DNA of 64,000 nucleotides from Chloroflexota bacterium (GCA_026708115.1 JAPOVL010000050.1:156876-220875); one strand, 5' to 3'; shown: positions 13,504 through 54,835, counted from the first letter of the stretch. Made by a program: numbers and translations. The notes: generated by a model from the sequence alone, not told the origin.

Positions 13504-13580
13504 GTCGTGCCAATTGAGTTATGAATGAATCGTTTCCAAGTGTAACATGGTCGCTGCCAGCGGAATAACGACACTGGGAC

Positions 13581-13675
13581 TGTTTACGTAAACCGCGTCG
13601 CTCTTGCGGAGAGAAGGCTTACGATTTTGCCTGAGCCCGACATTCCTGTGAACTTTTCGCTGCCGCCGAGCGGCT
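13581..13675 (+). repeat. repeat family E, copy 1
   Basis: TGTTTACGTAAACCGCGTCGC...GGCTTACGA...TTTTCGCTGCCGCCGAGCGGCT aligns at roughly 80 percent identity by eye with 15367-15454. It lies just downstream of pyrH. Confidence 0.85.
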
Positions 13676-15258: not shown

Positions 15259-15366
15259 ATGAGCAAGGGCCCTTGCAAAATAAAAGGACTAGCGCGGCGC
15301 TAATCCCCTTTTTGTCTTGACTGTCCTCGGGAAAAGGCATCTCGGCTAGCCTTTCTCGCAAGCTCC

Positions 15367-15454
15367 TGTTTACGTAAACCGTGTCGCACATGCGACGAGC
15401 AGGCTTACGACGTTGCATGAGCGCGGCAGTCCTTTTCGCTGCCGCCGAGCGGCT
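15367..15454 (+). repeat. repeat family E, copy 2
   Basis: It has the same ends as copy 1 (TGTTTACGTAAACC ... TTTTCGCTGCCGCCGAGCGGCT). It contains the 12-nt palindrome GTTTACGTAAAC and the palindrome GTCGCA-CA-TGCGAC. Its last bases overlap the tsf stop codon. Confidence 0.85.
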
Positions 15455-16093: not shown

Positions 16094-17008
16094 TTATTCT
16101 TGAGTTTTTGCTTCCGCTTCGGCCGCTGGTTGCGCTTTGGCGGCACCGCCACCGACATCTTCGCTGGATTCGCCCGTCTCTCCTTCGCTATCGCCGAAGA
16201 GCTTGGAATCGCGCAGTTTCGCCAGTGTCGATTCGCCCAGCAAATCTTCGTCACCGAGTTCTTCGTCATATGTATCGGTGAACATTTGCTCTTCTTCCTC
16301 TTCGAGCCCCGCGGACTGTCGCAGGTTCTGCCCTTCGAGTACAGCATCCGCCAAGGCGCTTACCAACAGCCGAATCGAACGCATCGCATCGTCGTTTGCG
16401 GGCAAAATGTGATCAACAAGGTCAGGATCGGCATTGGTATCGACCAGCGCCAAGACTGGAATGCCAAGAATATTGGCTTCCTTCACGGCGGTGTGTTCGC
16501 GCTCAGCATCAACCACGATGAGCATGTCCGGGATGCGATTCATCTCGCGAATACCACCGAGGCGCAATTGCAGCTTGGATATCTTGCGGCTCAGCACCAG
16601 CGCTTCTTTCTTTGTCAGCTTGTCGAACTCGCCAGCGTCGCGCCGTCGTTCGAGCTGCTTTAAGGTGTCGATGCGGCTGCGGATTGTCTTCCAATTGGTT
16701 AGCGTACCGCCCAACCAGCGGTAATTCACAAAGGGCATGCCGCAGCGCCCGGCCTCGCGCTGGATAATCTCCTGGGCCTGCCGTTTGGTACCGACAAAAA
16801 GCACACTGCCGCCATCGGCGATCAGCTTGGCGATCATGTCGTGGAATCTATTGAGGTTTTTCAGCGTAATCTGCAAGTCGATGATGTGGATCCCGTTGCG
16901 TTGAGTGAAGATGAATTCATCCATCTTGGGATTCCACTTGTTGGTACGATGCCCAAAGTGGACACCGGTTTCGAGTAGGGAACGCATTTTTACCGCTGAG
17001 GGCATCAC
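16094..17008 (-). CDS. rpsB: 30S ribosomal protein S2, with an acidic C-terminal extension
   Basis: LLETGVHFGHRTNKWNPKM, GTKRQAQE, RWLGGTLTN, DA.REH.AV.EA..LGIPV.ALVDTN. Confidence 0.95.
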   Translation of the reverse strand: MMPSAVKMRSLLETGVHFGHRTNKWNPKMDEFIFTQRNGIHIIDLQITLKNLNRFHDMIAKLIADGGSVLFVGTKRQAQEIIQREAGRCGMPFVNYRWLGGTLTNWKTIRSRIDTLKQLERRRDAGEFDKLTKKEALVLSRKISKLQLRLGGIREMNRIPDMLIVVDAEREHTAVKEANILGIPVLALVDTNADPDLVDHILPANDDAMRSIRLLVSALADAVLEGQNLRQSAGLEEEEEQMFTDTYDEELGDEDLLGESTLAKLRDSKLFGDSEGETGESSEDVGGGAAKAQPAAEAEAKTQE

Positions 17009-17147
17009 AAATCTCCTTGGTCAATTGGTGTTTTGGTCTCGCACATCGTTCATCCTCTGGTGAAAATCCGCCCTGGGCGGACAACACCCACCAAGAGTCC
17101 CGACATGTGGAATTTGGAAACGCAAAGTTGCCACGATTCCGCGGCGG

Positions 17148-17176: not shown

Positions 17177-17198
17177 TGATGTCTTTCGGAGACGATAA

Positions 17199-17610
17199 GG
17201 CTTGTCCGCTACTACAAATCATACGTATAGATAACAGGAACAGTACCGAAACAATATAAAATAGGTGCCGACCCTTGCGAAAATCAACAAATTATTACGA
17301 AATCCACCCAATTTAGCTCCCCTTCTCCCCTTGTGGGAATTCCGCCCCCCGCTTAGCGGGGGGACCGAGGGGGGCAAGGGGCCGGGGGATGGGGGTAGAA
17401 AAGGCGGCATTTGGGCGGAGTACCGGACAAGCCTTGTAGGGGCGACCTATCAGGTCGCCCGAAATCTACGAAATGACATCAAAATCAACAGAGTTTTCAT
17501 GCCCGCTGCAAACCTCTGTCCGGTCCTCAGCCGTGAGGCGGGGGACGGAGGGGGCAATGCCGGGGATGGGGTAGAAAAAAGCGTGTCAAACGCCCAGTAG
17601 CGGACAAGCC
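17199..17610. mobile_element. MITE-like element, family A, copy 1 (inner right end at 17433, outer at 17610)
   Basis: Left end GGCTTGTCCGCTACT at 17199-17213. The inverted copy AGTACCGGACAAGCC is at 17419-17433 and AGTAGCGGACAAGCC is at 17597-17610. The left arm of about 125 bp and the right arm of about 50 bp match copy 2 at 25019-25404. No coding capacity. Confidence 0.75.
17331..17395 (+). repeat. family D module: perfect GC hairpin plus four G-runs, copy 1
   Basis: TTGTGGGAATTCCG-CCCCCCGC-TTA-GCGGGGGG-ACCGA-GGGGGG-CAA-GGGG-CC-GGGGG-AT-GGGGG. Confidence 0.9.
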
Positions 17611-17615
17611 CTATA

Positions 17616-18731
17616 TCAGCTGGATTCCTTGAGTATAGCCCGCAAGGCGCCCAGGAAGGCTTGGTTGGCTTCTCTTGTGCCCAGGCTCAGCCGGACAGCA
17701 TTGGGCAATTCGTTCCGCGTTTGCGCGCGCAGCAAGAAGCCGCGTTCCAATAGCGCCCGCTGCAAATCATCCCCCGGCATGTGGGTTTCGAACATAACAA
17801 AATTCGCCGCCGGCTTCCAATAGCGGATGCCCATCCGCTCCAATTCAGCGCAGACCCATCTGGCCTCCGCTCTCAGATAACTGACGACCTTATGGACATG
17901 TTCTTGATCGCCGCAGGCCGCGATGCCAGCAGCCAGCGCCAGCTTGTTCTGATGAAATCCACGATGCAGGCCCGCGATGTAGTTGGCAAGATCAGGTTTG
18001 GCAATGCCATAGCCGAGACGCAGCCCAGCCAGACCGTATGCCTTGGAAAAGCTGTGTACGACCACGATATTCTTGCCTTCGAGTACGTAGCGAAGTGAAT
18101 CGGGGTATGCGGGATCGTCGACAAAATGGTGATACACCTCGTCCGCAACTACCAAGACGTGTTCGGGGATACCGCGCATCAGGGCGTCCATCGACTCCGA
18201 GGGCATCACGGTTCCCGTCGGATTGTTGGGATTGCACAGCATGATCAGCCGAGTTCCTTCGTTGATCGCTTCCAGCACCGCATCGACTCGATACGCGAAT
18301 GAATCGGGCGCCAGCGGCACATCCACGACCCTTGCTCCCAAAGGTTCGGAGATTTTCTTGTAAGCGCCGGTGAAGGTCGGCGAGCACAGAATCAGTTCGT
18401 CTCCCGGTCTCAAGAATCCGCGCGCGATCAATTCCAGAGACTCGAAGCCGCTGCAACCGGTGTAGATATGTTCCGTCGTCAAGCCGCGTCCCAGTACCCT
18501 AACGATCGCTTGTCGAAGTCCTATGTCCGAGTAATCCGGGTAGTAGGAAAGCGTTGGAGCAACGGCGCCAATAGCGTCAATCACTCTTGGAGAGGGGCCC
18601 AGCGGATTCTCGTTGTTTGCCAATTGGTAAATCTTGCTTATGCCATGCTTTTCTTGCAGGTCTTCCAACGAGTCGCGCTTACCAGCGCGCGCGAAAGGCT
18701 GGATATCCGGGTTGGTTGTGAGTTGGCTCAT
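17616..18731 (-). CDS. histidinol-phosphate aminotransferase family (class II PLP aminotransferase)
   Basis: 371 aa with LANNENPLGPSP, NPNNPTG and SFSKAYGLAGLRLGY (PLP lysine). Confidence 0.8.
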   Translation of the reverse strand: MSQLTTNPDIQPFARAGKRDSLEDLQEKHGISKIYQLANNENPLGPSPRVIDAIGAVAPTLSYYPDYSDIGLRQAIVRVLGRGLTTEHIYTGCSGFESLELIARGFLRPGDELILCSPTFTGAYKKISEPLGARVVDVPLAPDSFAYRVDAVLEAINEGTRLIMLCNPNNPTGTVMPSESMDALMRGIPEHVLVVADEVYHHFVDDPAYPDSLRYVLEGKNIVVVHSFSKAYGLAGLRLGYGIAKPDLANYIAGLHRGFHQNKLALAAGIAACGDQEHVHKVVSYLRAEARWVCAELERMGIRYWKPAANFVMFETHMPGDDLQRALLERGFLLRAQTRNELPNAVRLSLGTREANQAFLGALRAILKESS

Positions 18732-24700: not shown

Positions 24701-24919
24701 AGGCTTTGCTGCTCCCCAGTGTAGTTCGGGCAGATTCTCGCGCTCATTGTATATCAAGGTTGTTCAAAGCGGGAATATCGCGGGACGTCCCTGGCCAATC
24801 AACGAAGCTTGTCGATCGCCCGTGTAGCCTGTCTACGGTTCGACCCGACAATTGTTTCAGATGATTGCATAGTGTATTGAAGTCGGTTGAATTTATGAAC
24901 AACAAGCGCCTGACAGCCG

Positions 24920-25016
24920 GTAGGGGCGATCGAAGGTCAGTGTCTACGCGACCCGCTGGATCGCCCGACGCGTAGAAACTGAATGAGTATCGTGTGACTC
25001 GCCGAGTCGCCCCTAC
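24920..25016. repeat. nested hairpin built from family B and C modules
   Basis: GTAGGGGCGA (24920-29) pairs with TCGCCCCTAC (25007-16). GGGCGATC (24923-30) can alternatively pair with GATCGCCC (24959-66). Inside, TCAGTGTCTACGCG (24937-50) pairs with CGCGTAGAAACTGA (24969-82), 13 of 14 positions. Confidence 0.85.
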
Positions 25017-25018
25017 AA

Positions 25019-25404
25019 GGCTTGTCCGCTACTGAAGATCTTACTCATAGATAACAAGAATAATACCGAAACAATACAAAAAAATTGGCGATTCTTGCGA
25101 AAATCGGCAAATTATTACGAAATCCGCCAAGTTTAGCTCCCCTTCCTCCAATGCTTTGGGATACTTCCCCCGTGAGGCGCTGAGGACATGACAGCTTTGA
25201 TCCGATTGGCTATGAAAGCGACCGGACAAAGATCACAAGCATCTTATTGGGCGAAAATTGTAGGGGCGACTCTGTGAGTCGCCCGAAATCGCCACAGAAA
25301 TTACAGGTTTTGCAGCGGTATTCCGCCAAGTTAAAACCTGTCATGTCCTCAGCCGGGGGATGGGGGTAGAAAAGGCGGCATTTGGGCGGAGTAGCGGACA
25401 AGCC
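25019..25404. mobile_element. MITE-like element, family A, copy 2
   Basis: GGCTTGTCCGCTACT (25019-33) and AGTAGCGGACAAGCC (25390-404), flanked by TACA on both sides. It also has an internal 13-bp inverted repeat, GAGGACATGACAG / CTGTCATGTCCTC. Confidence 0.8.
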
Positions 25405-25488
25405 TTACAGACCGTTGGTATTTTGGGTTAAGGATCCCATGCCGAGGACTGGCGAAAATTGTTTCAACCGAAAAAGATACACTACCGA

Positions 25489-25747
25489 CAGAGCAATCGC
25501 ACCAAAACCAATAACTGTCGAATGTCGCATAAATCTAGCAAAATGTAGGGGCGACATACTATGTCGCCCATGAATATAGCAATAAAATCGCGGGAGTTTC
25601 AGCGGGTCGTATAGGTCGCGTAGACGCTGACCGTCAAATGGCCTCCTTTTTTCGCATGCAAGCGGTTAAATCTCGGTGATCTCGGTGTCGAAGGGCAGTG
25701 TCTACGCGACCCTCGGTGGTTAAGAAAAATCTGGTGCGATTGCTCTG
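25489..25747. mobile_element. MITE with perfect 15-bp terminal inverted repeats and a 9-bp target-site duplication
   Basis: CAGAGCAATCGCACC (25489-503) pairs with GGTGCGATTGCTCTG (25733-47). The direct repeat CACTACCGA is immediately outside both ends (25480-88 and 25748-56). The element is 259 bp and non-coding, and it carries B and C modules inside. Confidence 0.9.
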
Positions 25748-25817
25748 CACTACCGATGATTCAGTTGAAGTGCCGACGAGTTCGTAGTAAGCTGAATGTC
25801 CTTGGAGGTGAATCCCT

Positions 25818-30824: not shown

Positions 30825-31886
30825 TTAGAGCCTAACGGCCTGTCCGGTGCGTGCGGACTCTTGCGCGGCCAGCGCGAATCTCAAGACATCGCGCCCCTCT
30901 TCTCCTGTGAGCATAGGCGCTTCGCCGGCAAAATAGGCCTCGATAAAGTGGCGGGTCGAGTTGATGAAGCTGTGTTCCCAGCCCACCGGCATATCCGAGA
31001 AGGCGCGCGTCTGCCTGTCCTTGTACATGACCACCGGCGGCACATCCATCATCTTGCCGTGGCCCCGTGTCACCCAAATCACGCCTTTAGTGCCGGTCAA
31101 TTCCACGCGATCGTCTTGCGCGTATTGACGCGTATCCAAGACCAGTTCAGGAGAATAAACCGCTTCCAGTGAGCCATAGCGGTTGTTGGGGAACTTCCAC
31201 GAGACGATCGCGGGCGCGTCAAGAATCATGCCGGGGGCAACTTCCGTGCTGCCGATCCAGGCATGCACCTGCTCCGCCATGCCCATGAAATGCCAACCCA
31301 GCGCGAATTTGTGATGACCATCGTCGAATACCAGCGGCCCGCCGCCGCATTCCTCCGGGTCGTAGCGCCAAGCCAAGGCCGCATTCGGCACATCCCACTC
31401 TGTCGGGCTGACGCCGGAATTGCTCTTGATGCGGATCGTTAGCAAATCCCCGATCTCGCCGTTGTCAACCAGCGCTTTGGCGCGTTCTACGGGCGGATAG
31501 AAGATGAAATTCTCGTACACCTTGAACAGAACACCGGCTTGCCGCGTCGCCTCGATCATGGCCTCGGCTTGGGCAACGGTCAATGCCATCGGCTTTTGCA
31601 CCGAAACGTGCTTGCCTGCCGCGGCCGCGTCCAGGGTCGCTTGATAGTGCAGGTGATGCGGCAAGAGGATCTCCACCAGGTCAATGTCATCCAGCGCCAA
31701 GAGATCGCTGTAGTCGCTGAATACGCGAGAACCCGGCACGCCCCAGGCGCGTCCGCGCGTCTCTGCCAGCTCAATGCTTCGATCGCAAACCGCCACAATT
31801 TCTGCCCGCGGGTCATCCAGATAGGCCAGCGCGTGCAAATCCGAAATCCTTCCCGTTCCGATGAATCCTACGCGAAGTGTGTCCAT
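30825..31886 (-). CDS. Gfo/Idh/MocA family oxidoreductase
   Basis: LRVGFIGTGRIS..HA (Rossmann motif) and EKP-like VQKPMA. Confidence 0.9.
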   Translation of the reverse strand: MDTLRVGFIGTGRISDLHALAYLDDPRAEIVAVCDRSIELAETRGRAWGVPGSRVFSDYSDLLALDDIDLVEILLPHHLHYQATLDAAAAGKHVSVQKPMALTVAQAEAMIEATRQAGVLFKVYENFIFYPPVERAKALVDNGEIGDLLTIRIKSNSGVSPTEWDVPNAALAWRYDPEECGGGPLVFDDGHHKFALGWHFMGMAEQVHAWIGSTEVAPGMILDAPAIVSWKFPNNRYGSLEAVYSPELVLDTRQYAQDDRVELTGTKGVIWVTRGHGKMMDVPPVVMYKDRQTRAFSDMPVGWEHSFINSTRHFIEAYFAGEAPMLTGEEGRDVLRFALAAQESARTGQAVRL

Positions 31887-32174: not shown

Positions 32175-32199
32175 GTAGGGGCGACCTATCAGGTCGCCC
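32175..32199. repeat. family B hairpin (identical to 17436-17460)
   Basis: GTAGGGGCGAC-CTATCAG-GTCGCCC, followed by GAAA in both copies. Confidence 0.9.
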
Positions 32200-32537
32200 G
32201 AAACACACCACCTACATTCACATCGAAGACTGTATGGGCGAACGACAGCGAGTGTCTACGCCGCTCGCCGGCTCGCCCCTCTGCGCCCTCAGTAGGAGCA
32301 ACTAAGTTATGCAGCTCCAAAATGATAGCCGGCGGTAGGGGCGTTTGACGGTCAGTGTCGGCGGCCAGTGTCGGCGCGCCCTACGCGCCCAGCGCGCAGC
32401 GGCGGCTCGACCAGTTTTGGCGCCAAGAGAACAGCGCGAAAAAAATCTCATTTATGGCGAAACGTCCCGATCTATTCCCAATCCCGCCAAACGCGCTCCC
32501 CCTCCGGAGGGCTGTGTCTACGCGCCCCCGAAGCCTC

Positions 32538-32597
32538 GGAATTCCGCCCCCCGCTAAGCGGGGGGACCGAGGGGGGGCAAGGGTCCGGGGGGTGGGG
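32538..32597 (+). repeat. family D module, copy 2
   Basis: GGAATTCCG-CCCCCCGC-TAA-GCGGGGGG-ACCGA-GGGGGGG-CAA-GGG-TCC-GGGGGG-T-GGGG. Family C motifs flank it at 32512-27 and 32604-23. Confidence 0.9.
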
Positions 32598-32626
32598 TTG
32601 AAAAGTGTCTACGCGACCTACGCACC

Positions 32627-32721
32627 CTCTTTTTTAATAAACCGCGATCTGCGGTAGCCGAGCACTTTGTTATTCTGTGTGAGCGCGGTAGCCCAAATTC
32701 GCCGATTACGCGCCGAGCGGC
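32627..32721 (+). repeat. repeat family F, copy 2
   Basis: CTCTTTTTTAATAAACCGCGATCTGCGGTAGCCGAGC...TTCTGTGTGAGCGCGGTAGCCCAAATTCGCCGATTACGCGCCGAGCGGCC. Confidence 0.85.
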
Positions 32722-32735
32722 CGTGGCAAATAGCC

Positions 32736-32798: not shown

Positions 32799-33527
32799 AT
32801 GCCAGCAACCCACACCCTCGATACCAAAATCGAAGCCCTCAACCTGCTCAACCTGCACGACGGCGACTTGAAACTGGTCAATTCCCGGCTCGGCATTCCC
32901 ATCAGAACCATGCGCGGCTGGCTACTTGACGAGCAACAACTCCGTCTCCAATACTACGACCGCCAATACCACCACTTCGCCAACATCAAATTCAAACTCC
33001 TCAACAAGTTCTTGGTATTCTCACTCGACACCATGGAGAAATTGATGACCGGCGACCTCGGCGACCACACCCTCAGCCAACTCACCTACGTCCTGTCAAC
33101 CCTGCTCAATCAAGCTGCCAGACTGGAGAAGTCCTTCGAAGACCTGCCGCCAGATCTCGAAAGCGATGCCGAACAGCCCAACCGCATCCGCTATGTCTAC
33201 GAAGATGAACCGGGTGCTGACCCGCCCCCGGCAGATGCAAATCCGCCCCAGCCCGACCCGACTCAAAGTTCTGGCCTACGGCCGGCGCCGGAGAACATAC
33301 CGGGAATGGGGCTTGATCAAGATCCTGAGGGCGGCGCGCTCGCAACAGAAGCGCTACTGCAGGACAGCCTTGAGCTGCTTGATGGAACCGATCTGCCCGA
33401 TGCCTTGCTAGAACTGCTGCGATCTGAACAGGAGGGTCAAGAACCTGAAAAACGGCCTAATAGACGCAAGCGATCGCTGGGTCAAACTCACAGAAAGCGG
33501 CGTAAACGTCGTAAGAGGCGCCGATAA
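32799..33527 (+). CDS. hypothetical HTH-containing protein with an acidic/Pro-rich middle and a polybasic tail
   Basis: 242 aa. The N-terminus (IEALNLLNLHDGDLKLVNSRLGIPIRTMRGWL) looks like a small HTH of the transposase-OrfA or terminase-small-subunit type. The C-terminus ends RKRRKRRKRRR. It has a strong SD and promoter. The track ORF (32667) starts upstream inside a repeat. Confidence 0.6.
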   Translation: MPATHTLDTKIEALNLLNLHDGDLKLVNSRLGIPIRTMRGWLLDEQQLRLQYYDRQYHHFANIKFKLLNKFLVFSLDTMEKLMTGDLGDHTLSQLTYVLSTLLNQAARLEKSFEDLPPDLESDAEQPNRIRYVYEDEPGADPPPADANPPQPDPTQSSGLRPAPENIPGMGLDQDPEGGALATEALLQDSLELLDGTDLPDALLELLRSEQEGQEPEKRPNRRKRSLGQTHRKRRKRRKRRR

Positions 33528-33763: not shown

Positions 33764-33788
33764 GTAGGGGCGAGCCATTGGCTCGCCC
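33764..33788. repeat. family B hairpin variant
   Basis: GTAGGGGCGAGCC-ATT-GGCTCGCCC. Confidence 0.85.
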
Positions 33789-33879
33789 GCTTCTACAATT
33801 ACAAATCGCAGCGGCGGCTCGCCCCCGGTGTTGGCAGGCAGTGTCGGCGGGCAGTGTCTACGCGCCCTACGCGCACCCC

Positions 33880-33944
33880 TTGTGGGATTTCCGCCCCCCG
33901 CTTAGCGGGGGGACCGAGGGGGGCCAGGGGCCGGGGGGTGAGGG
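33880..33944 (+). repeat. family D module, copy 3
   Basis: TTGTGGGATTTCCG-CCCCCCGC-TTA-GCGGGGGG-ACCGA-GGGGGG-CCA-GGGG-CC-GGGGGG-TGA-GGG. It is preceded by a family C motif at 33852-74. Confidence 0.9.
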
Positions 33945-33968
33945 CCAAAAAATCTCTCTCTGCACCCA

Positions 33969-33992
33969 GGGGGGTACCCCCCCCCCCCCCCC
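33969..33992 (+). repeat. homopolymer tract G6-TA-C16
   Basis: GGGGGGTACCCCCCCCCCCCCCCC, counted directly from the sequence lines. Confidence 0.9.
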
Positions 33993-34073: not shown

Positions 34074-34222
34074 ACACAGATTCAGCATATAACACCGCTT
34101 TGCGCCCATCGAACGCGCCCGCCTTGGGCCGCCCGTCGAAAACTGTTCCGCTTGCCCAGCCACATGGACCTGCGCTACAATCCCGCCCGAAGACATCGAC
34201 CTATTGAGTGCCAGGCTGCCTG

Positions 34223-35692
34223 ATGAAACCTGCCAATTTGCTCTTTATCCTCTCCGATCAGCATCAAGCGGCGGCTATGGGCTGCGCCGGGCATCCCTTG
34301 CTGCAAACTCCCAACCTCGACCGCCTCGCTGCATCCGGCGCCCGCTTCAGCAACGCCTACACACCTTGCGCCATCTGCGTGCCCGCCCGCGCCGTCTTGG
34401 CCACGGGCCAATATGTGCATCAGATCGGCTACTGGGACAACGGCAATCCCTACGATGGGGGCGTCAAGAGCTGGATGCACCGACTCAAGGAATCCGGCTA
34501 TCAAGTCGATTCCATCGGCAAGCTGCACTTCCGCAGCGCCGAAGACGACAACGGTTTCACCCAGGAAATCGAGCCTCTGCACGTCGTCGAAGGCATCGGC
34601 GATCCCGCCAGCGGCATCCGCGACGGCTCCTTGATTCGCAATTCGCGCGGCGGCATCGACGAAGCCGGCGCCGGCCCCAGCACCTATCAGGCCTACGATA
34701 TCCGCAATCGGGACAACGCCCTGCGTTGGCTGCGCCAACACGCCAATGACGACCAGCCCTGGGTCCTGTTTTTGAGCTTTGTCACGCCACATCCGCCCTT
34801 CCTGTCGCCGCCGGATACCTATGCCCTCTATCCGCATGACCGCATCGCCTTGCCGCCTCAATGGCGCGAGTCGGATTGGGTCAAGCATCCGGCCTTTCAA
34901 TATATGCGCCGTTCCTTCGGCTTCGAGCAACCCTTCGACGAAGCGACCATCCGGCGGCTCCACGCCGCCTATTACGGCATCTGCACCTTCCTTGACCAGC
35001 AGATTGGCCAGGTGCTCGAAGCAGTCGACGATTTGAACTTGCGAGACTCAACGCGAATCATCTATACCTCCGATCATGGCGAGCAGCTTGGCGCGCGCGG
35101 CATATTCGGCAAGATCACCATGTACGAGGAATCATCCGCCATTCCTTTTATCATGTCCGGTCCCGATGTGCCGCCAGGAGTGGTTGTCGACACGCCGATC
35201 TCGCTAATCGATTGCTATCCAACCATCCTCAGCGCTGTCGGCTGCCCGCCGAGTGATGCCGATCAAACGCGCCCGGGCGAATCGCTCTGGCCAATCGCGA
35301 ACGAAGCCGGGCGCGACCGCACGATCTTTGCGGAATATCACGCCGTCGGCTCGCGAAACGCCTACTATATGCTGCGCGACCGACGCTACAAGTACGTCTA
35401 TCATGTGGCTGCGCCGCCCCAATTGTTTGACCTGGATGCCGATCCGTTGGAACTTCACGATCTGGCCATTGACGCGGATGTCGATGCGCGCAATTTGCTG
35501 AATAAATATGAAGCCCAATTGCGCGCGATCCTGGATCCGGAAGCGGTTGACGCGCGCGCGAAAGCGGATCAGACGCGGCGCATAGAGGAATTGGGCGGCC
35601 GCGACGCCGTGGTCGCTCGGGGCTCCTTCATCAACTCGCCCGTGCCCGGTGAAGAACCGAATTTCCGGCAGTTGCAATCCCCCTCCGCTTGA
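34223..35692 (+). CDS. sulfatase (alkaline-phosphatase superfamily)
   Basis: NLLFILSDQH and CAICVPARAVLATGQ (the C-x-P-x-R formylglycine motif) are present. The ATG at 34223 is preferred over the track GTG at 34208. Confidence 0.9.
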   Translation: MKPANLLFILSDQHQAAAMGCAGHPLLQTPNLDRLAASGARFSNAYTPCAICVPARAVLATGQYVHQIGYWDNGNPYDGGVKSWMHRLKESGYQVDSIGKLHFRSAEDDNGFTQEIEPLHVVEGIGDPASGIRDGSLIRNSRGGIDEAGAGPSTYQAYDIRNRDNALRWLRQHANDDQPWVLFLSFVTPHPPFLSPPDTYALYPHDRIALPPQWRESDWVKHPAFQYMRRSFGFEQPFDEATIRRLHAAYYGICTFLDQQIGQVLEAVDDLNLRDSTRIIYTSDHGEQLGARGIFGKITMYEESSAIPFIMSGPDVPPGVVVDTPISLIDCYPTILSAVGCPPSDADQTRPGESLWPIANEAGRDRTIFAEYHAVGSRNAYYMLRDRRYKYVYHVAAPPQLFDLDADPLELHDLAIDADVDARNLLNKYEAQLRAILDPEAVDARAKADQTRRIEELGGRDAVVARGSFINSPVPGEEPNFRQLQSPSA

Positions 35693-54673: not shown

Positions 54674-54727
54674 CGCTTCTCAGTAATTCCAAGTATGTCA
54701 TGCAAATTCCGCATTAACGTCGAGTCG

Positions 54728-54835
54728 CAGGGGCGAGCCCGTGGCTCGCCAACCGTTCCGGTTAGGTTTTGCGGGCGACCCGGCGCCGCGCGTAGGTCGC
54801 GTAGACACTGACCGCCGACACAGCGGGTCGGTCGC
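54728..54835. repeat. family B hairpin plus an inverted family C motif
   Basis: GGGGCGAGCC-CGT-GGCTCGCC (54730-50). The reverse complement of GCGCGTAGGTCGCGTAGACACTGACCGCCGACAC (54788-821) is GTGTCGGCGGTCAGTGTCTACGCGACCTACGCGC. Confidence 0.85.

What the first reader, a model, noticed from the sequence alone, without database searches (positions are those of the whole stretch)
33880..33944. Recurrent module: a perfect 8-bp GC hairpin immediately followed by four G-runs (G-quadruplex-competent), three copies, all in the same orientation
The consensus is TTCCG-CCCCCCGC-T(T/A)A-GCGGGGGG-ACCGA-G6-7-N3-G3-4-N2-3-G5-6-N1-3-G3-5. It occurs at 17331-17395, 32538-32597 and 33880-33944. A hairpin-less G-run variant lies at 17540-17571. 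The hairpin stem is perfect in all copies while the loop varies (TTA or TAA). The G-run lengths vary, but every copy keeps four runs of at least 3 G with short spacers, which is the canonical G4 rule. The 3' arm of the hairpin is itself a G6 run, so hairpin and quadruplex could be mutually exclusive folds, giving a potential structural switch at the DNA or RNA level. All copies have the G-rich strand on the + strand. I do not recognise this as a described repeat or RNA family.
Basis: partly seen in the sequence, partly recalled or inferred. Interest (0 to 1): 0.65.

Follow-up and report, generated by a model that had tools for sequence, protein, structure and literature searches.

The report
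Tiny GC-hairpin mobile repeat, G-rich tail
The hairpin-plus-G-runs module is real, but it looks like a copy of a very small selfish DNA repeat that is scattered through many bacterial phyla and some phages, even inside genes, and not like a conserved G-quadruplex switch.

Summary
Observation confirmed. Three exact copies of TTCCGCCCCCCGCTWAGCGGGGGGACCGAGGGGGG lie at 17340, 32542 and 33889 (+), with 0 expected by chance. Each is followed by four G-runs (G4Hunter 2.4-2.7). Two damaged copies lie at 17531-17571 and 25136-25179/25353-25373.

The G4-switch interpretation is only partly supported. In about 100 loci from other genomes the conserved part is a ~30-36 nt core: C6-loop-G6-A(N3)A-G6. It occurs in Chloroflexota, Poribacteria, Planctomycetota, Cyanobacteria, Bacteroidota, other phyla and viral contigs. 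The four-run tail is a Chloroflexota embellishment. It is canonical in 12 of 44 close relatives and 2 of 33 others.

The unit behaves as mobile DNA:
- It is a clean 36-nt insertion in duplicated gene ends.
- It is an in-frame insert in a DUF917-family gene and in phage portal and terminase genes.
- Window copy 1 rides in a 420-bp TIR-bounded MITE that is absent from the same spacer in two relatives.

Orientation relative to genes is unbiased. I found no covariation, no Rfam hit and no terminator signature.

Best reading: a new REP/MITE/RPE-like family of non-autonomous mini-elements sitting in BIME-like mosaics. The mobilising enzyme is unknown; a hairpin-recognising ssDNA transposase is inferred, not shown.

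The parts
17327..17402 (+). Module copy 1 (composite, 76 nt). Small hairpin CCCCTTGTGGG, then TTCCG. Main hairpin 17345-17363 (CCCCCCGC-TTA-GCGGGGGG). Linker ACCGA 17364-17368. G6 17369-17374. Tail G4/G5/G5 to 17395. TAGAAAA.
32529..32604 (+). Module copy 2. Hairpin 32547-32565 (loop TAA). ACCGA 32566-32570. G7 32571-32577. Tail G3/G6/G4 to 32597. Flanked on both sides by GTGTCTACGCG mini-repeats.
33876..33951 (+). Module copy 3. Hairpin 33894-33912 (loop TTA). ACCGA 33913-33917. G6 33918-33923. Tail G4/G6/G3 to 33944. An orthologous copy sits at the same place in related MAG contig L063.
17531..17571 (+). Truncated module: CCGTGAGGCGGGGG-ACGGA-GGGGG-CAATGCC-GGGG-AT-GGGG. The 5' arm of the hairpin is missing and is preceded by the right inverted repeat of another small element (..TGTCCGGTCCTCAG).
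25136..25179 (+). Left half of a split module: AGCTCCCCTTCC, hairpin CCAATGCTTTGG, then ...CTTCCCCCGTGAGGCG.
   Evidence: (D4)
25353..25373 (+). Right half of the same split module (CCGGGGGATGGGGGTAGAAAA). It is separated from the left half by a ~175-bp insertion with 20-nt inverted repeats at 25179-25198 and 25334-25353.
   Evidence: (D6)
17195..17614 (.). TIR-bounded MITE block that carries copy 1 and the truncated copy. TIRs are ATAAGGCTTGTCCGCTACT (17195-17213) and AGTAGCGGACAAGCCCTAT (17596-17614), with an internal right TIR at 17419-17435. TA lies on both flanks. The block is absent from the orthologous hisC-like/rpsB spacer of two relatives.
25015..25406 (.). Sister copy of the same MITE. 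The left 129 nt are 84% identical and the right 55 nt are 98% identical to the 17195 block. It carries the split module.
   Evidence: (D4, D6)
33764..33792 (+). One of the GTAG-tagged REP-like hairpins (GTAG-GGGCGAGCC-ATT-GGCTCGCCC) that share the mosaic clusters with the modules. Others lie at 17436-17464, 25260-25288, 25545-25573 and 32175-32203 (+) and 24990-25018 (-).
   Evidence: (D5, D11); REP definition from PMC6006769
33844..33881 (+). CAGTGTCTACGCG(C/A)CC mini-repeat abutting copy 3. Further copies lie at 24930, 25688, 32021, 32096, 32358, 32504 and 32604 (+), and inverted at 25614-25635 and 54790-54814. It is another component of the mosaic.
   Evidence: (D1, D3, D12, D16)

Best explanation
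The module is a copy of a non-autonomous, dispersed, GC-rich palindromic mini-element, that is, selfish or mobile DNA.

Its family-wide core is about 30-36 nt: a C6(G)/(C)G6 hairpin, a 5-nt linker that starts and ends with A (ACCGA here), and a second G6.

In Chloroflexota this core is embedded in a longer composite of about 75-95 nt. The composite has a C-rich leader, a small variable hairpin and a G-rich tail. The tail supplies the 'four G-runs'.

In the window the composites sit in BIME-like mosaics of several nested small repeats: GTAG-tagged REPs, a GTGTCTACGCG mini-repeat and a TIR-bounded MITE. These mosaics fill three long intergenic spacers.

Shown here:
- recurrence of the module;
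- cross-phylum and phage distribution of the core;
- clean insertion relative to an uninterrupted parent sequence;
- survival as in-frame inserts in coding genes in either orientation;
- carriage of copy 1 by a MITE that is missing from orthologous spacers.

Inferred, not shown: how the core spreads. My preferred mechanism is copy-out and insertion of single-stranded DNA by a trans-acting, hairpin-recognising enzyme, of the HUH/Y1 type used by IS200/IS605 and REP/RAYT systems. Three observations point that way. The 36-nt unit has no terminal inverted repeats and no clear target duplication. Its stem is sequence-invariant while the loop is free. Copies are strand-coherent locally. Composite copies can additionally hitch-hike inside DDE-type MITEs.

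On this reading the G-run tail is a lineage-specific part of the repeat. It is generically complementary to the C-rich leader. It is not a selected quadruplex.
For: - Non-chance recurrence in the window.
- A genome scan with an 18-mer that fixes only the 3' arm, the linker and the first G-run gave 109 matches in the 100 scan loci plus the window. Of these, 87 carry the complementary 5' arm. They come from Chloroflexota (many sponge MAGs, Phototrophicaceae, Anaerolineae), Ca. Poribacteria, Fimbriiglobus and other Planctomycetota, Hydrogenedentota, Armatimonadia, cyanobacteria and Bacteroidota. The 22 hairpin-less hits are GC-rich chance matches.
- Extra copies not selected by the pattern, and a viral scan that left the linker free, show that the linker is 5 nt with A at both ends in 30/36 clean viral cases and 20/23 genomic ones.
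- Clean 36-nt insertion. In L065 an intact Mo-oxidoreductase gene reads ...TGGGA|GCAGG.... Four downstream duplicates of its 3' end read ...TGGGA[TTTCCGCCCCCCGTTGAGCGGGGGGACCGAGGGGGGA]CCAGG....
- In-frame coding inserts. A DUF917-family gene in four genomes carries about 25 extra residues at that spot compared with PDB 2o3i and with paralogues in the same loci. A viral contig has two copies each inside the portal and large-terminase genes, in antisense, read as ..PLGPP...
- Window block 17195-17614 (19-nt TIRs, TA flanks) is absent from the syntenic hisC-like/rpsB spacer of L221 and L222, which is 80 and 121 nt there against 607 nt in the window.
- Orientation relative to neighbouring genes is unbiased: >E> 19, <E< 14, <E> 11, >E< 10.
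- Local strand coherence: 5/5 in the window, and all 15 matches on one strand in one 41-kb viral contig.
- GTAG-REP hairpins adjoin the modules in every cluster.
Against: - No transposase or other recurrent gene was found next to the elements. Clustering of proteins from 100 loci gave only ABC transporters, sulfatases and oxidoreductases.
- No enzyme-element link was tested, so the mobilisation mechanism is conjecture.
- The hairpin lacks the GTAG/GTGG tag that defines RAYT-associated REPs.
- No recent presence/absence polymorphism of the core itself was seen in this species. Two assemblies that are 99.83% identical have identical modules.
- A near-identical ~30-nt sequence across phyla is unusual for REP-like repeats, which are normally species-specific. 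It could instead mean a conserved host function or convergent origin from simple C6/G6 sequence.
- G-richness of the tail is retained in 35/44 close relatives, so some structural selection on the tail cannot be ruled out.
- The loci are the first 100-120 rows of truncated scans, not a random sample.
Confidence: 0.65

Rival explanations
1. Hairpin/G-quadruplex structural switch. The G-rich strand, as DNA or RNA, toggles between the C6/G6 hairpin and a four-run quadruplex and thereby regulates transcription, translation or replication nearby.
For: All three window copies satisfy the canonical G4 rule with G4Hunter 2.4-2.7. Tail G-richness (G4Hunter at least 1.5) is kept in 35/44 close relatives. 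Run lengths vary while the runs persist in the three window copies.
Against: - Four runs are kept in only 12/44 close relatives (tail) or 23/44 (with the hairpin arm), and in 2-3/33 copies in other phyla.
- The orthologous copy in L063 has a 2-G second run.
- In the window the tail alone has four runs, so there is no forced competition with the hairpin.
- There is no orientation bias relative to genes.
- Copies sit inside coding genes in both orientations.
- No run-length polymorphism is seen between two assemblies of the species.
Confidence: 0.1
2. Host-domesticated structural or protein-binding site, as proposed for some REPs: an mRNA 3'-end stabiliser, a Rho-dependent termination module on the C-rich strand, or a binding site for a nucleoid or repair protein that reads two G6 blocks one helical turn apart.
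For: Two G6 blocks are spaced 11 bp centre to centre, with a constrained A...A linker. The stem is very stable. The complementary strand is C-rich and G-poor for about 40 nt, which is rut-like (direct reading). The core sequence is nearly invariant across phyla.
Against: There is no preferred orientation or distance relative to gene ends. No U-tract and no terminator call occurs at the modules. Several copies lie inside essential phage genes and other coding regions, where a regulatory site makes little sense. The orthologous spacers of L221 and L222 function without it.
Confidence: 0.12
3. A structured non-coding RNA (sRNA or cis-regulatory leader) transcribed from the G-rich strand.
For: Two adjacent hairpins. 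The upstream small hairpin differs in sequence between copies yet can still pair (CCGATGCTTCGG, CCCCATTGCAATGGGG, CCTAGCTCGCTGGG, TCCCCTTGTGGGA). G.T wobbles in the main stem are compatible with the G-rich strand (CCCCCTGC, CCCTCCGC).
Against: - No Rfam match, even at permissive thresholds.
- RNAalifold on 27 copies finds only the invariant hairpin, with 0 compensatory pairs.
- Folding energies do not differ from shuffles.
- The leader/tail duplex is no better within a copy than between copies, -23.3 vs -22.9 kcal/mol, p = 0.24.
- No promoter or terminator signature is present.
- Copies are unbiased relative to genes and occur within ORFs.
Confidence: 0.05
4. Sequencing or assembly artefact, such as poly-G calls from two-colour chemistry or chimeric joins.
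For: Many viral-contig hits to a loose C6...G6N5G6 pattern were long poly-G/poly-C runs at contig ends (67 of 186). Short-read contigs often break at these repeats (L412; several loci end inside the element).
Against: Identical modules are present in a second independent assembly. The element is present in chromosome-level assemblies (OZ... records). It is conserved at orthologous positions (L063, and the DUF917 and oxidoreductase loci). The non-homopolymer linker and loops are conserved.
Confidence: 0.01

Closest known systems
REP / BIME elements and their RAYT (TnpA-REP) transposases, including REPINs
   Same: Short GC-rich hairpin (8-bp stem, 3-nt loop). Multi-copy. Clustered with other small motifs in mosaic intergenic arrays. 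No terminal inverted repeats or target duplication for the core. True GTAG-tagged REPs lie beside every module in the window.
   Different: The module's hairpin is preceded by TTCCG or CTTCC, not by the GTAG/GTGG guide tetranucleotide that defines REPs (PMC6006769). It carries an obligatory 3' extension (A-N3-A + G6). Nearly the same sequence occurs in several phyla and in phages, whereas REPs are species-specific. It is often found inside coding genes. No RAYT was linked to it.
Rickettsia palindromic elements (RPE), 'selfish DNA in protein-coding genes' (own knowledge: Ogata et al. 2000)
   Same: A palindromic repeat that invades ORFs and persists as in-frame peptide inserts in otherwise conserved proteins. 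It also occurs in intergenic DNA.
   Different: RPEs are about 100-150 bp, AT-rich and confined to Rickettsia. This core is about 30-36 nt, extremely GC-rich and cross-phylum. No sequence similarity is expected, and none was tested.
Bacterial MITEs (TIR-bounded, DDE-transposase dependent)
   Same: The 420-bp block at 17195-17614 and its sister at 25015-25406 have 17-19-nt TIRs and TA flanks, and the block is absent from orthologous sites. The composite module has weak C-rich/G-rich imperfect end complementarity.
   Different: The 36-nt core itself has no TIRs and no evident target-site duplication (L065 insertion). It occurs both inside and outside the MITE. It is therefore a separate unit that the MITE merely carries.
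Cyanobacterial small dispersed repeats (SDR; own knowledge: Elhai et al. 2008, Genome Res 18:1484; paper not held in the library)
   Same: Very small mobile repeats (tens of nt). They are nested within other repeats and hairpins, present in both intergenic and genic positions, and have no known transposase.
   Different: SDRs were described as 21-27 nt families in Nostoc and relatives, with different sequences. I could not compare sequences. The present core has a defined hairpin plus repeated G-run architecture and a far wider host range.
Canonical G-quadruplex motifs, and the intramolecular pyrimidine-purine-purine (Y.R*R) triplex design (own knowledge: NMR model oligonucleotides of the form Y-loop-R-loop-R)
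   Same: The window tails fit (G3+N1-7)x4. The conserved core C6-loop-G6-N5-G6 has exactly the strand order and polarity needed for a G*G.C fold-back triplex.
   Different: The G4 rule is not conserved across the family. Neither fold has been tested. Conservation of sequence, and not just of run pattern, points to recognition by an enzyme or to common descent.

Membership tests
Canonical intramolecular G-quadruplex motif | Four runs of at least 3 G separated by loops of 1-7 nt on one strand | tested here: met
   All three window copies and the truncated copy match the regex. G4Hunter is 2.4-2.7.
Canonical intramolecular G-quadruplex motif | Pattern preserved among homologous copies, as expected if the fold is selected | tested here: not met
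   Tail only: 16/87 overall, 12/44 in the closest subfamily, 2/33 elsewhere. The ortholog L063 has a 2-G second run.
REP (RAYT-associated repetitive extragenic palindrome) | GTAG or GTGG tetranucleotide 0-2 nt 5' of the hairpin foot (PMC6006769) | tested here: not met
   The 5' flank is TTCCG in the window and CTTCC, TTCTG or similar elsewhere. The neighbouring D5 repeats do carry GTAG.
REP (RAYT-associated repetitive extragenic palindrome) | Short hairpin with a fully paired 7-20 bp basal stem and a loop of 2-5 nt | tested here: met
   8-bp perfect stem and 3-nt loop.
REP (RAYT-associated repetitive extragenic palindrome) | A cognate RAYT/Y1 transposase gene in the genome, often flanked by the repeats | not tested
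   Only 64 kb of the genome was available. No recurrent candidate turned up near elements in 100 loci, but proteins were not scanned for Y1_Tnp.
MITE (DDE-type) | Terminal inverted repeats and a target-site duplication bounding the unit | tested here: not met
   For the 36-nt core: a clean insertion without TIRs, and at most GGGA microhomology. The leader/tail complementarity is generic and not copy-specific. The carrier block 17195-17614, by contrast, does have 19-nt TIRs and TA flanks.
IS200/IS605-derived palindrome-associated elements (PATE-like) | Subterminal hairpins, no TIR or TSD, strand-specific insertion linked to the lagging-strand template | tested here: inconclusive
   Hairpin present, and no TIR or TSD. 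Local strand coherence is 5/5 in the window and all 15 matches in one viral contig. Replichore assignment was not possible from 8-kb loci.
RPE-like in-frame gene-invading repeats (functional class) | Repeat found inside conserved ORFs as an in-frame insert relative to homologues | tested here: met
   DUF917-family gene compared with 2o3i and with paralogues. Phage portal and TerL genes. A protein-kinase-like ORF in L011 (read by eye).
Any Rfam RNA family | Covariance-model match at or near the gathering score | tested here: not met
   Only a tRNA was found in the window. Nothing overlapped the module at E up to 10. Nothing was found in 18 related loci.
Intrinsic transcription terminator | GC-rich hairpin followed directly by a U/T tract | tested here: not met
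   The hairpin is followed by ACCGA-G6 on + and by CGGAAT on -. The scans call no terminator at any module.

The most novel reading that the evidence does not exclude
The conserved C6-loop-G6-A(N3)A-G6 core is by itself a complete mobile unit of about 30-36 nt. It would be among the smallest known, and it is shared by at least six bacterial phyla and their phages. It would be propagated by a machinery not yet identified that recognises a non-B fold of the single strand. Candidate folds are the hairpin with the second G6 docked as a Y.R*R triplex, or a G-hairpin that pairs between copies. The Chloroflexota four-run tail would then be a secondary elaboration of the same principle.
Probability: 0.25. 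Interest if true: 0.8.

Novelty: new variant of a known kind. Interest (0 to 1): 0.55.

Why it matters
If this reading is right, three long, repeat-stuffed spacers in this Chloroflexota genome are explained as accretions of nested mini-elements and not as regulatory RNA or G4 switches. This includes the spacer upstream of rpsB.

More broadly, the same ~30-nt hairpin-plus-G6 unit recurs almost letter for letter in distant phyla and in phage structural genes. REP-like repeats are normally species-specific, so this hints at a horizontally spreading mini-element, or a widely shared enzyme that copies it. I found it neither in Rfam nor in the searchable literature.

Practical consequences:
- Such elements break short-read assemblies.
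- They add peptide inserts to proteins.
- They create false 'G4 motif' enrichments in genome-wide G4 surveys of GC-rich bacteria.

Tried and rejected
- Rfam at gathering and permissive thresholds on the window and 18 related loci: nothing.
- Single-sequence RNA and DNA folding: the hairpin is stable, but z-scores are not different from shuffles.
- RNAalifold on 27 copies: no compensatory pairs.
- Test for a copy-specific outer stem between the C-rich leader and the G-tail: same-copy -23.3 vs cross-copy -22.9 kcal/mol, p = 0.24.
- I first read apparent 'covariation' flanking the core in L017, L044, L053 and L065 as an RNA helix. It turned out to be conserved coding sequence of a duplicated gene end.
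- Promoter and terminator scans: nothing at the modules.
- Orientation relative to neighbouring genes, using my own ORF caller: no bias.
- Search for a recurrent neighbouring transposase by all-against-all clustering: none.
- Exact Chloroflexota form in viral contigs: 0 hits.
- BLAST of the module against annotated plasmids and phages: no match, possibly because of low-complexity masking.
- Literature search for motif strings: 0 papers. Elhai 2008 could not be read.
- Phase-variation idea: the modules are identical in a second assembly, and only the nearby poly-C tract differs by one base.
- The ORF between copies 2 and 3 as a possible element gene: no Pfam, PHROG or NCBIfam hit.
- The idea that copies 2 and 3 are att-like direct repeats of an integrated segment: comparison with L063 was ambiguous.
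- Replichore bias from locus coordinates: too few copies per chromosome.
- Bacteroidota histidine-kinase occurrence: 29 nt are identical in two genomes, but there is no clear length insertion relative to solved kinases. It is left unresolved.

Full report
**1.
- The 35-nt pattern TTCCGCCCCCCGCTWAGCGGGGGGACCGAGGGGGG matches exactly at 17340, 32542 and 33889, all on +. No match occurred in 100 dinucleotide-preserving shuffles, even with three mismatches allowed.
- The repeat finder independently returns a 76-nt family at 17327-17402, 32529-32604 and 33876-33951.
- The stem is a perfect 8 bp with a TTA or TAA loop. As DNA it is worth about -10.8 kcal/mol.
- After ACCGA each copy has four G-runs: 6/4/5/5, 7/3/6/4 and 6/4/6/3.
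- All copies fit the canonical G4 rule and score 2.4-2.7 in G4Hunter. They are the strongest such sites on the + strand of the window.
- The truncated variant at 17531-17571 is real.
- A fifth copy was missed. It is split into 25136-25179 and 25353-25373 by a ~175-bp element with 20-nt inverted repeats.
- Because the tail alone has four runs, hairpin and quadruplex need not exclude each other.

**2. Setting in the window.** My ORF-based gene calls were cross-checked by Pfam on the flanking genes.
- Copy 1 lies in a 607-nt spacer between a class I/II aminotransferase gene (17616-18731, -) and rpsB (16094-17008, -).
- Copy 2 lies between a Gfo/Idh/MocA oxidoreductase gene (30825-31886, -) and an unassigned ORF (32667 or 32799 to 33527, +).
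- Copy 3 lies between that ORF and a sulfatase gene (34208-35692, +).

These spacers, and a fourth at 24760-25817, are mosaics of several small repeats:
- GTAG-tagged hairpins (GTAG-GGGCGACC-loop-GGTCGCCC). They meet the published REP definition of a GTAG/GTGG tag, a 7-20 bp stem and a 2-5 nt loop (PMC6006769).
- A CAGTGTCTACGCGACC mini-repeat in both orientations.
- A MITE with 17-19-nt terminal inverted repeats (AAGGCTTGTCCGCTACT).

The module is therefore one tile in a BIME-like mosaic.

**3. Relatives elsewhere.**
- I scanned one genome per species with GCGGGGGGACCGAGGGGG. This pattern fixes only the 3' arm, the linker and the first G-run.
- The scan hit its 100-locus limit.
- Of 109 matches in those 100 loci plus the window, 87 have the complementary C-rich 5' arm at a 2-7 nt loop distance. 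The other 22, mostly actinobacterial or proteobacterial, are consistent with chance in GC-rich DNA.
- The hairpin-bearing copies come from many Chloroflexota (sponge-derived MAGs, Anaerolineae, Phototrophicaceae, Caldilineae), a Ca. Poribacteria chromosome, Fimbriiglobus and other Planctomycetota, Hydrogenedentota, Armatimonadia, two cyanobacteria and two Bacteroidota.
- Loops vary freely (TTGAG, CTTAG, TGAGG, CTTG, TGG and others), while the stem stays C6G/CG6 with occasional T.G wobbles.
- Further copies in the same loci that the pattern did not select have linkers ACTGA, ATTAA, ATTGA and ATTTA.
- A viral-contig scan that left the linker free gave 36 clean instances after poly-G artefacts were removed. 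Of these, 30 have A at both linker ends and 21 fit AYYRA.
- The family-wide core is therefore C6-loop-G6-A(N3)A-G6.
- Rfam has nothing like it. The motif strings occur in no searchable paper.

**4. The four-run tail is not the conserved feature.**
- Among the 87 copies, 16 keep four runs of at least 3 G in the tail, or 28 if the hairpin arm is counted.
- In the Chloroflexota composite subfamily closest to the window, 12/44 keep them in the tail and 23/44 with the arm. With loops up to 12 nt the count is 30/44. G4Hunter is at least 1.5 in 35/44.
- In other phyla the counts are 2/33 (tail), 3/33 (with the arm) and 7/33 (G4Hunter at least 1.5).
- L063 is 86.6% identical to the window across the sulfatase gene and has the module at the same place. 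There the tail reads G6, G2, G5, G4, and the loop and spacer belong to another subtype.

**5. It behaves as inserted DNA.**
- (a) In L065 an intact molybdopterin-oxidoreductase gene is followed by four 163-nt duplicates of its own 3' end. Each duplicate differs from the parent by a clean 36-nt insertion, TTTCCGCCCCCCGTTGAGCGGGGGGACCGAGGGGGGA. It has no inverted ends and at most GGGA microhomology. L017, L044 and L053 show the same arrangement.
- (b) Four genomes carry an ~80-nt composite in frame inside a DUF917-family gene. PDB 2o3i and three paralogues from the same loci lack those ~25 residues.
- (c) In a 41-kb viral contig all 15 matches are on one strand. Two copies lie inside the portal gene and two, in tandem, inside the large-terminase gene. 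They are antisense and are translated as ..PLGPP...
- (d) Syntenic aminotransferase-rpsB spacers from two metagenomic relatives (S2 protein 86% and 81% identical) are 80 and 121 nt long. The alignment shows that window 17195-17614, from TIR to TIR with TA on both flanks, is an insertion that carries copy 1 and the truncated copy. A promoter-like site for rpsB lies outside it.

**6. What it is not.**
- Orientation relative to flanking genes is unbiased: 19 >E>, 14 <E<, 11 <E>, 10 >E<.
- No promoter or terminator is called at any module.
- RNAalifold on 27 copies recovers only the invariant hairpin, with no compensatory pair.
- Leader/tail pairing is generic C-run/G-run complementarity and is not copy-specific (p = 0.24).
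- Folding energies match those of shuffles.
- It is not an artefact. A second assembly of the same species (99.83% identical over 9 kb) has identical modules. The differences lie in a REP loop, in a one-base change of the nearby C16 tract, and in SNPs clustered in the unassigned ORF region between copies 2 and 3.

**7. Mechanism.**
- Shown: the unit is dispersed, insertional, tolerated in ORFs and hitch-hikes in a MITE.
- Inferred: the way the core spreads.
- I favour a trans-acting enzyme that recognises the hairpin on single-stranded DNA, like the HUH/Y1 transposases of IS200/IS605 and REP systems. The reasons are the lack of TIRs and of a target duplication, the invariant stem with a free loop, the constrained 5-nt linker, the local strand coherence and the constant company of true REPs.
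- Against this: the GTAG tag is missing, no enzyme was linked to the element, and the near-identity across phyla is atypical for REPs.
- The core's order (pyrimidine run, loop, purine run, 5-nt linker, purine run) is also the geometry of an intramolecular G*G.C triplex. This is from my own knowledge of model oligonucleotides and is untested here.

**8. Verdict.**
- The recurrence is genuine.
- The G4-switch reading is mostly not supported.
- The element is best filed as a new variant of the REP/MITE/RPE/SDR kind of small selfish repeat. It is notable for its tiny conserved core and its cross-phylum and phage distribution.
- Confidence in the 'dispersed mobile mini-element' reading is about 0.65. 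Confidence in the specific mobilisation mechanism is about 0.25.

Noticed in passing
window 17436-17464, 25260-25288, 25545-25573, 32175-32203, 33764-33792 (+); 24990-25018 (-); 54727-54750: GTAG-tagged REP-like hairpins (GTAG-GGGCGACC-loop-GGTCGCCC) with variable loops. In a second assembly of the species, the loop of the 32175 copy differs at 4 of 5 positions while the stem is unchanged. This suggests replacement by another copy.
   Followed up: partly
window 24930, 25688, 32021, 32096, 32358, 32504, 32604, 33844 (+); 25614-25635, 54790-54814 (inverted); L098:6970-7077: A ~16-25 nt mini-repeat, CAGTGTCTACGCG(A/C)CC, recurs next to the modules. It replaces the C-rich leader in several genomes. 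In L098 it sits inside the G-run tail of a module, so it looks like a further tiny insertion element.
   Followed up: partly
window 17195-17614 and 25015-25406: MITE with 17-19-nt TIRs (AAGGCTTGTCCGCTACT) and TA flanks. It is absent from the orthologous spacer in L221 and L222. The 25015 copy is itself interrupted by a ~175-bp element with 20-nt inverted repeats GCTGAGGACATGACAGCTTT (25179-25198 / 25334-25353). The same right-end architecture (module, GTAGAAAA, short hairpin, TIR, REP) recurs in Phototrophicaceae genomes (L026, L030, L081, L086, L089).
   Followed up: partly
window 33969-33992: Palindrome plus homopolymer: GGGGGGTA followed by C16. It is conserved next to the module in L063 and L002 and is one C shorter in the second assembly (L410). 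This could be a slippage-prone tract or an assembly uncertainty.
   Followed up: partly
window 32667/32799-33527 (+): An unassigned ORF (242-286 aa; HTH-like N-terminal part by eye, acidic/Pro-rich middle, Arg/Lys-rich tail) lies between module copies 2 and 3. It has no Pfam, PHROG or NCBIfam hit. Nearly all the single-base differences between the two assemblies of the species (13 of 14) fall between 32187 and 33598, 7 of them inside this ORF; the rest of the 9 kb is otherwise identical apart from a one-base difference in the poly-C tract at 33977.
   Followed up: partly
window 32626-32726; L063:242-331 and 1996-2073; L099:6297-6398: A ~100-nt repeat (..TTTTAATAAACCGCGATCTGCGGTAGCCGAGC..GAGCGCGGTAGCCCAAATTCG..) is conserved at 86-93% between genomes. 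It is found upstream of different genes and next to tRNA-Arg in L063. Its nature is unknown.
   Followed up: no
L065:5902-6545 (also L017, L044, L053): Two to four tandem 163-nt duplicates of the 3' end of a YedY/MsrP-like Mo-oxidoreductase gene. Every duplicate carries the 36-nt core, and the intact gene does not. Why the gene end is serially duplicated together with the insert is unexplained.
   Followed up: partly
L026:4053-4160 (-): In one Phototrophicaceae copy the third G-run has expanded to 21 G. This shows that the runs are prone to slippage.
   Followed up: no
L080:3186-3211 and L085:2302-2327: Two Bacteroidota histidine-kinase genes share an identical 29-nt core (CATCCCCCCTGCGGGGGGACCGAGGGGGGCTTT) just upstream of the G1 box, although the flanking codons differ. 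No clear length insertion is seen relative to solved kinases.
   Followed up: partly
window 17012-17098 (-): The conserved leader upstream of rpsB gives a sub-threshold Rfam hit to Poribacteria-1 RNA (16 bits against a gathering score of 74, E = 3.8). This is probably meaningless, but the leader aligns with L221 and L222.
   Followed up: no
window 13580-13647 and 15366-15433: Two 68-nt copies (82% identical) of CTGTTTACGTAAACCGCGTCGC.. lie in spacers near the tsf/rpsB region. Not examined.
   Followed up: no
window, whole: Cumulative GC skew has its minimum near 38 kb. All five module copies lie to its left with the G-rich strand on +. Whether this marks a replication origin was not tested.
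   Followed up: no
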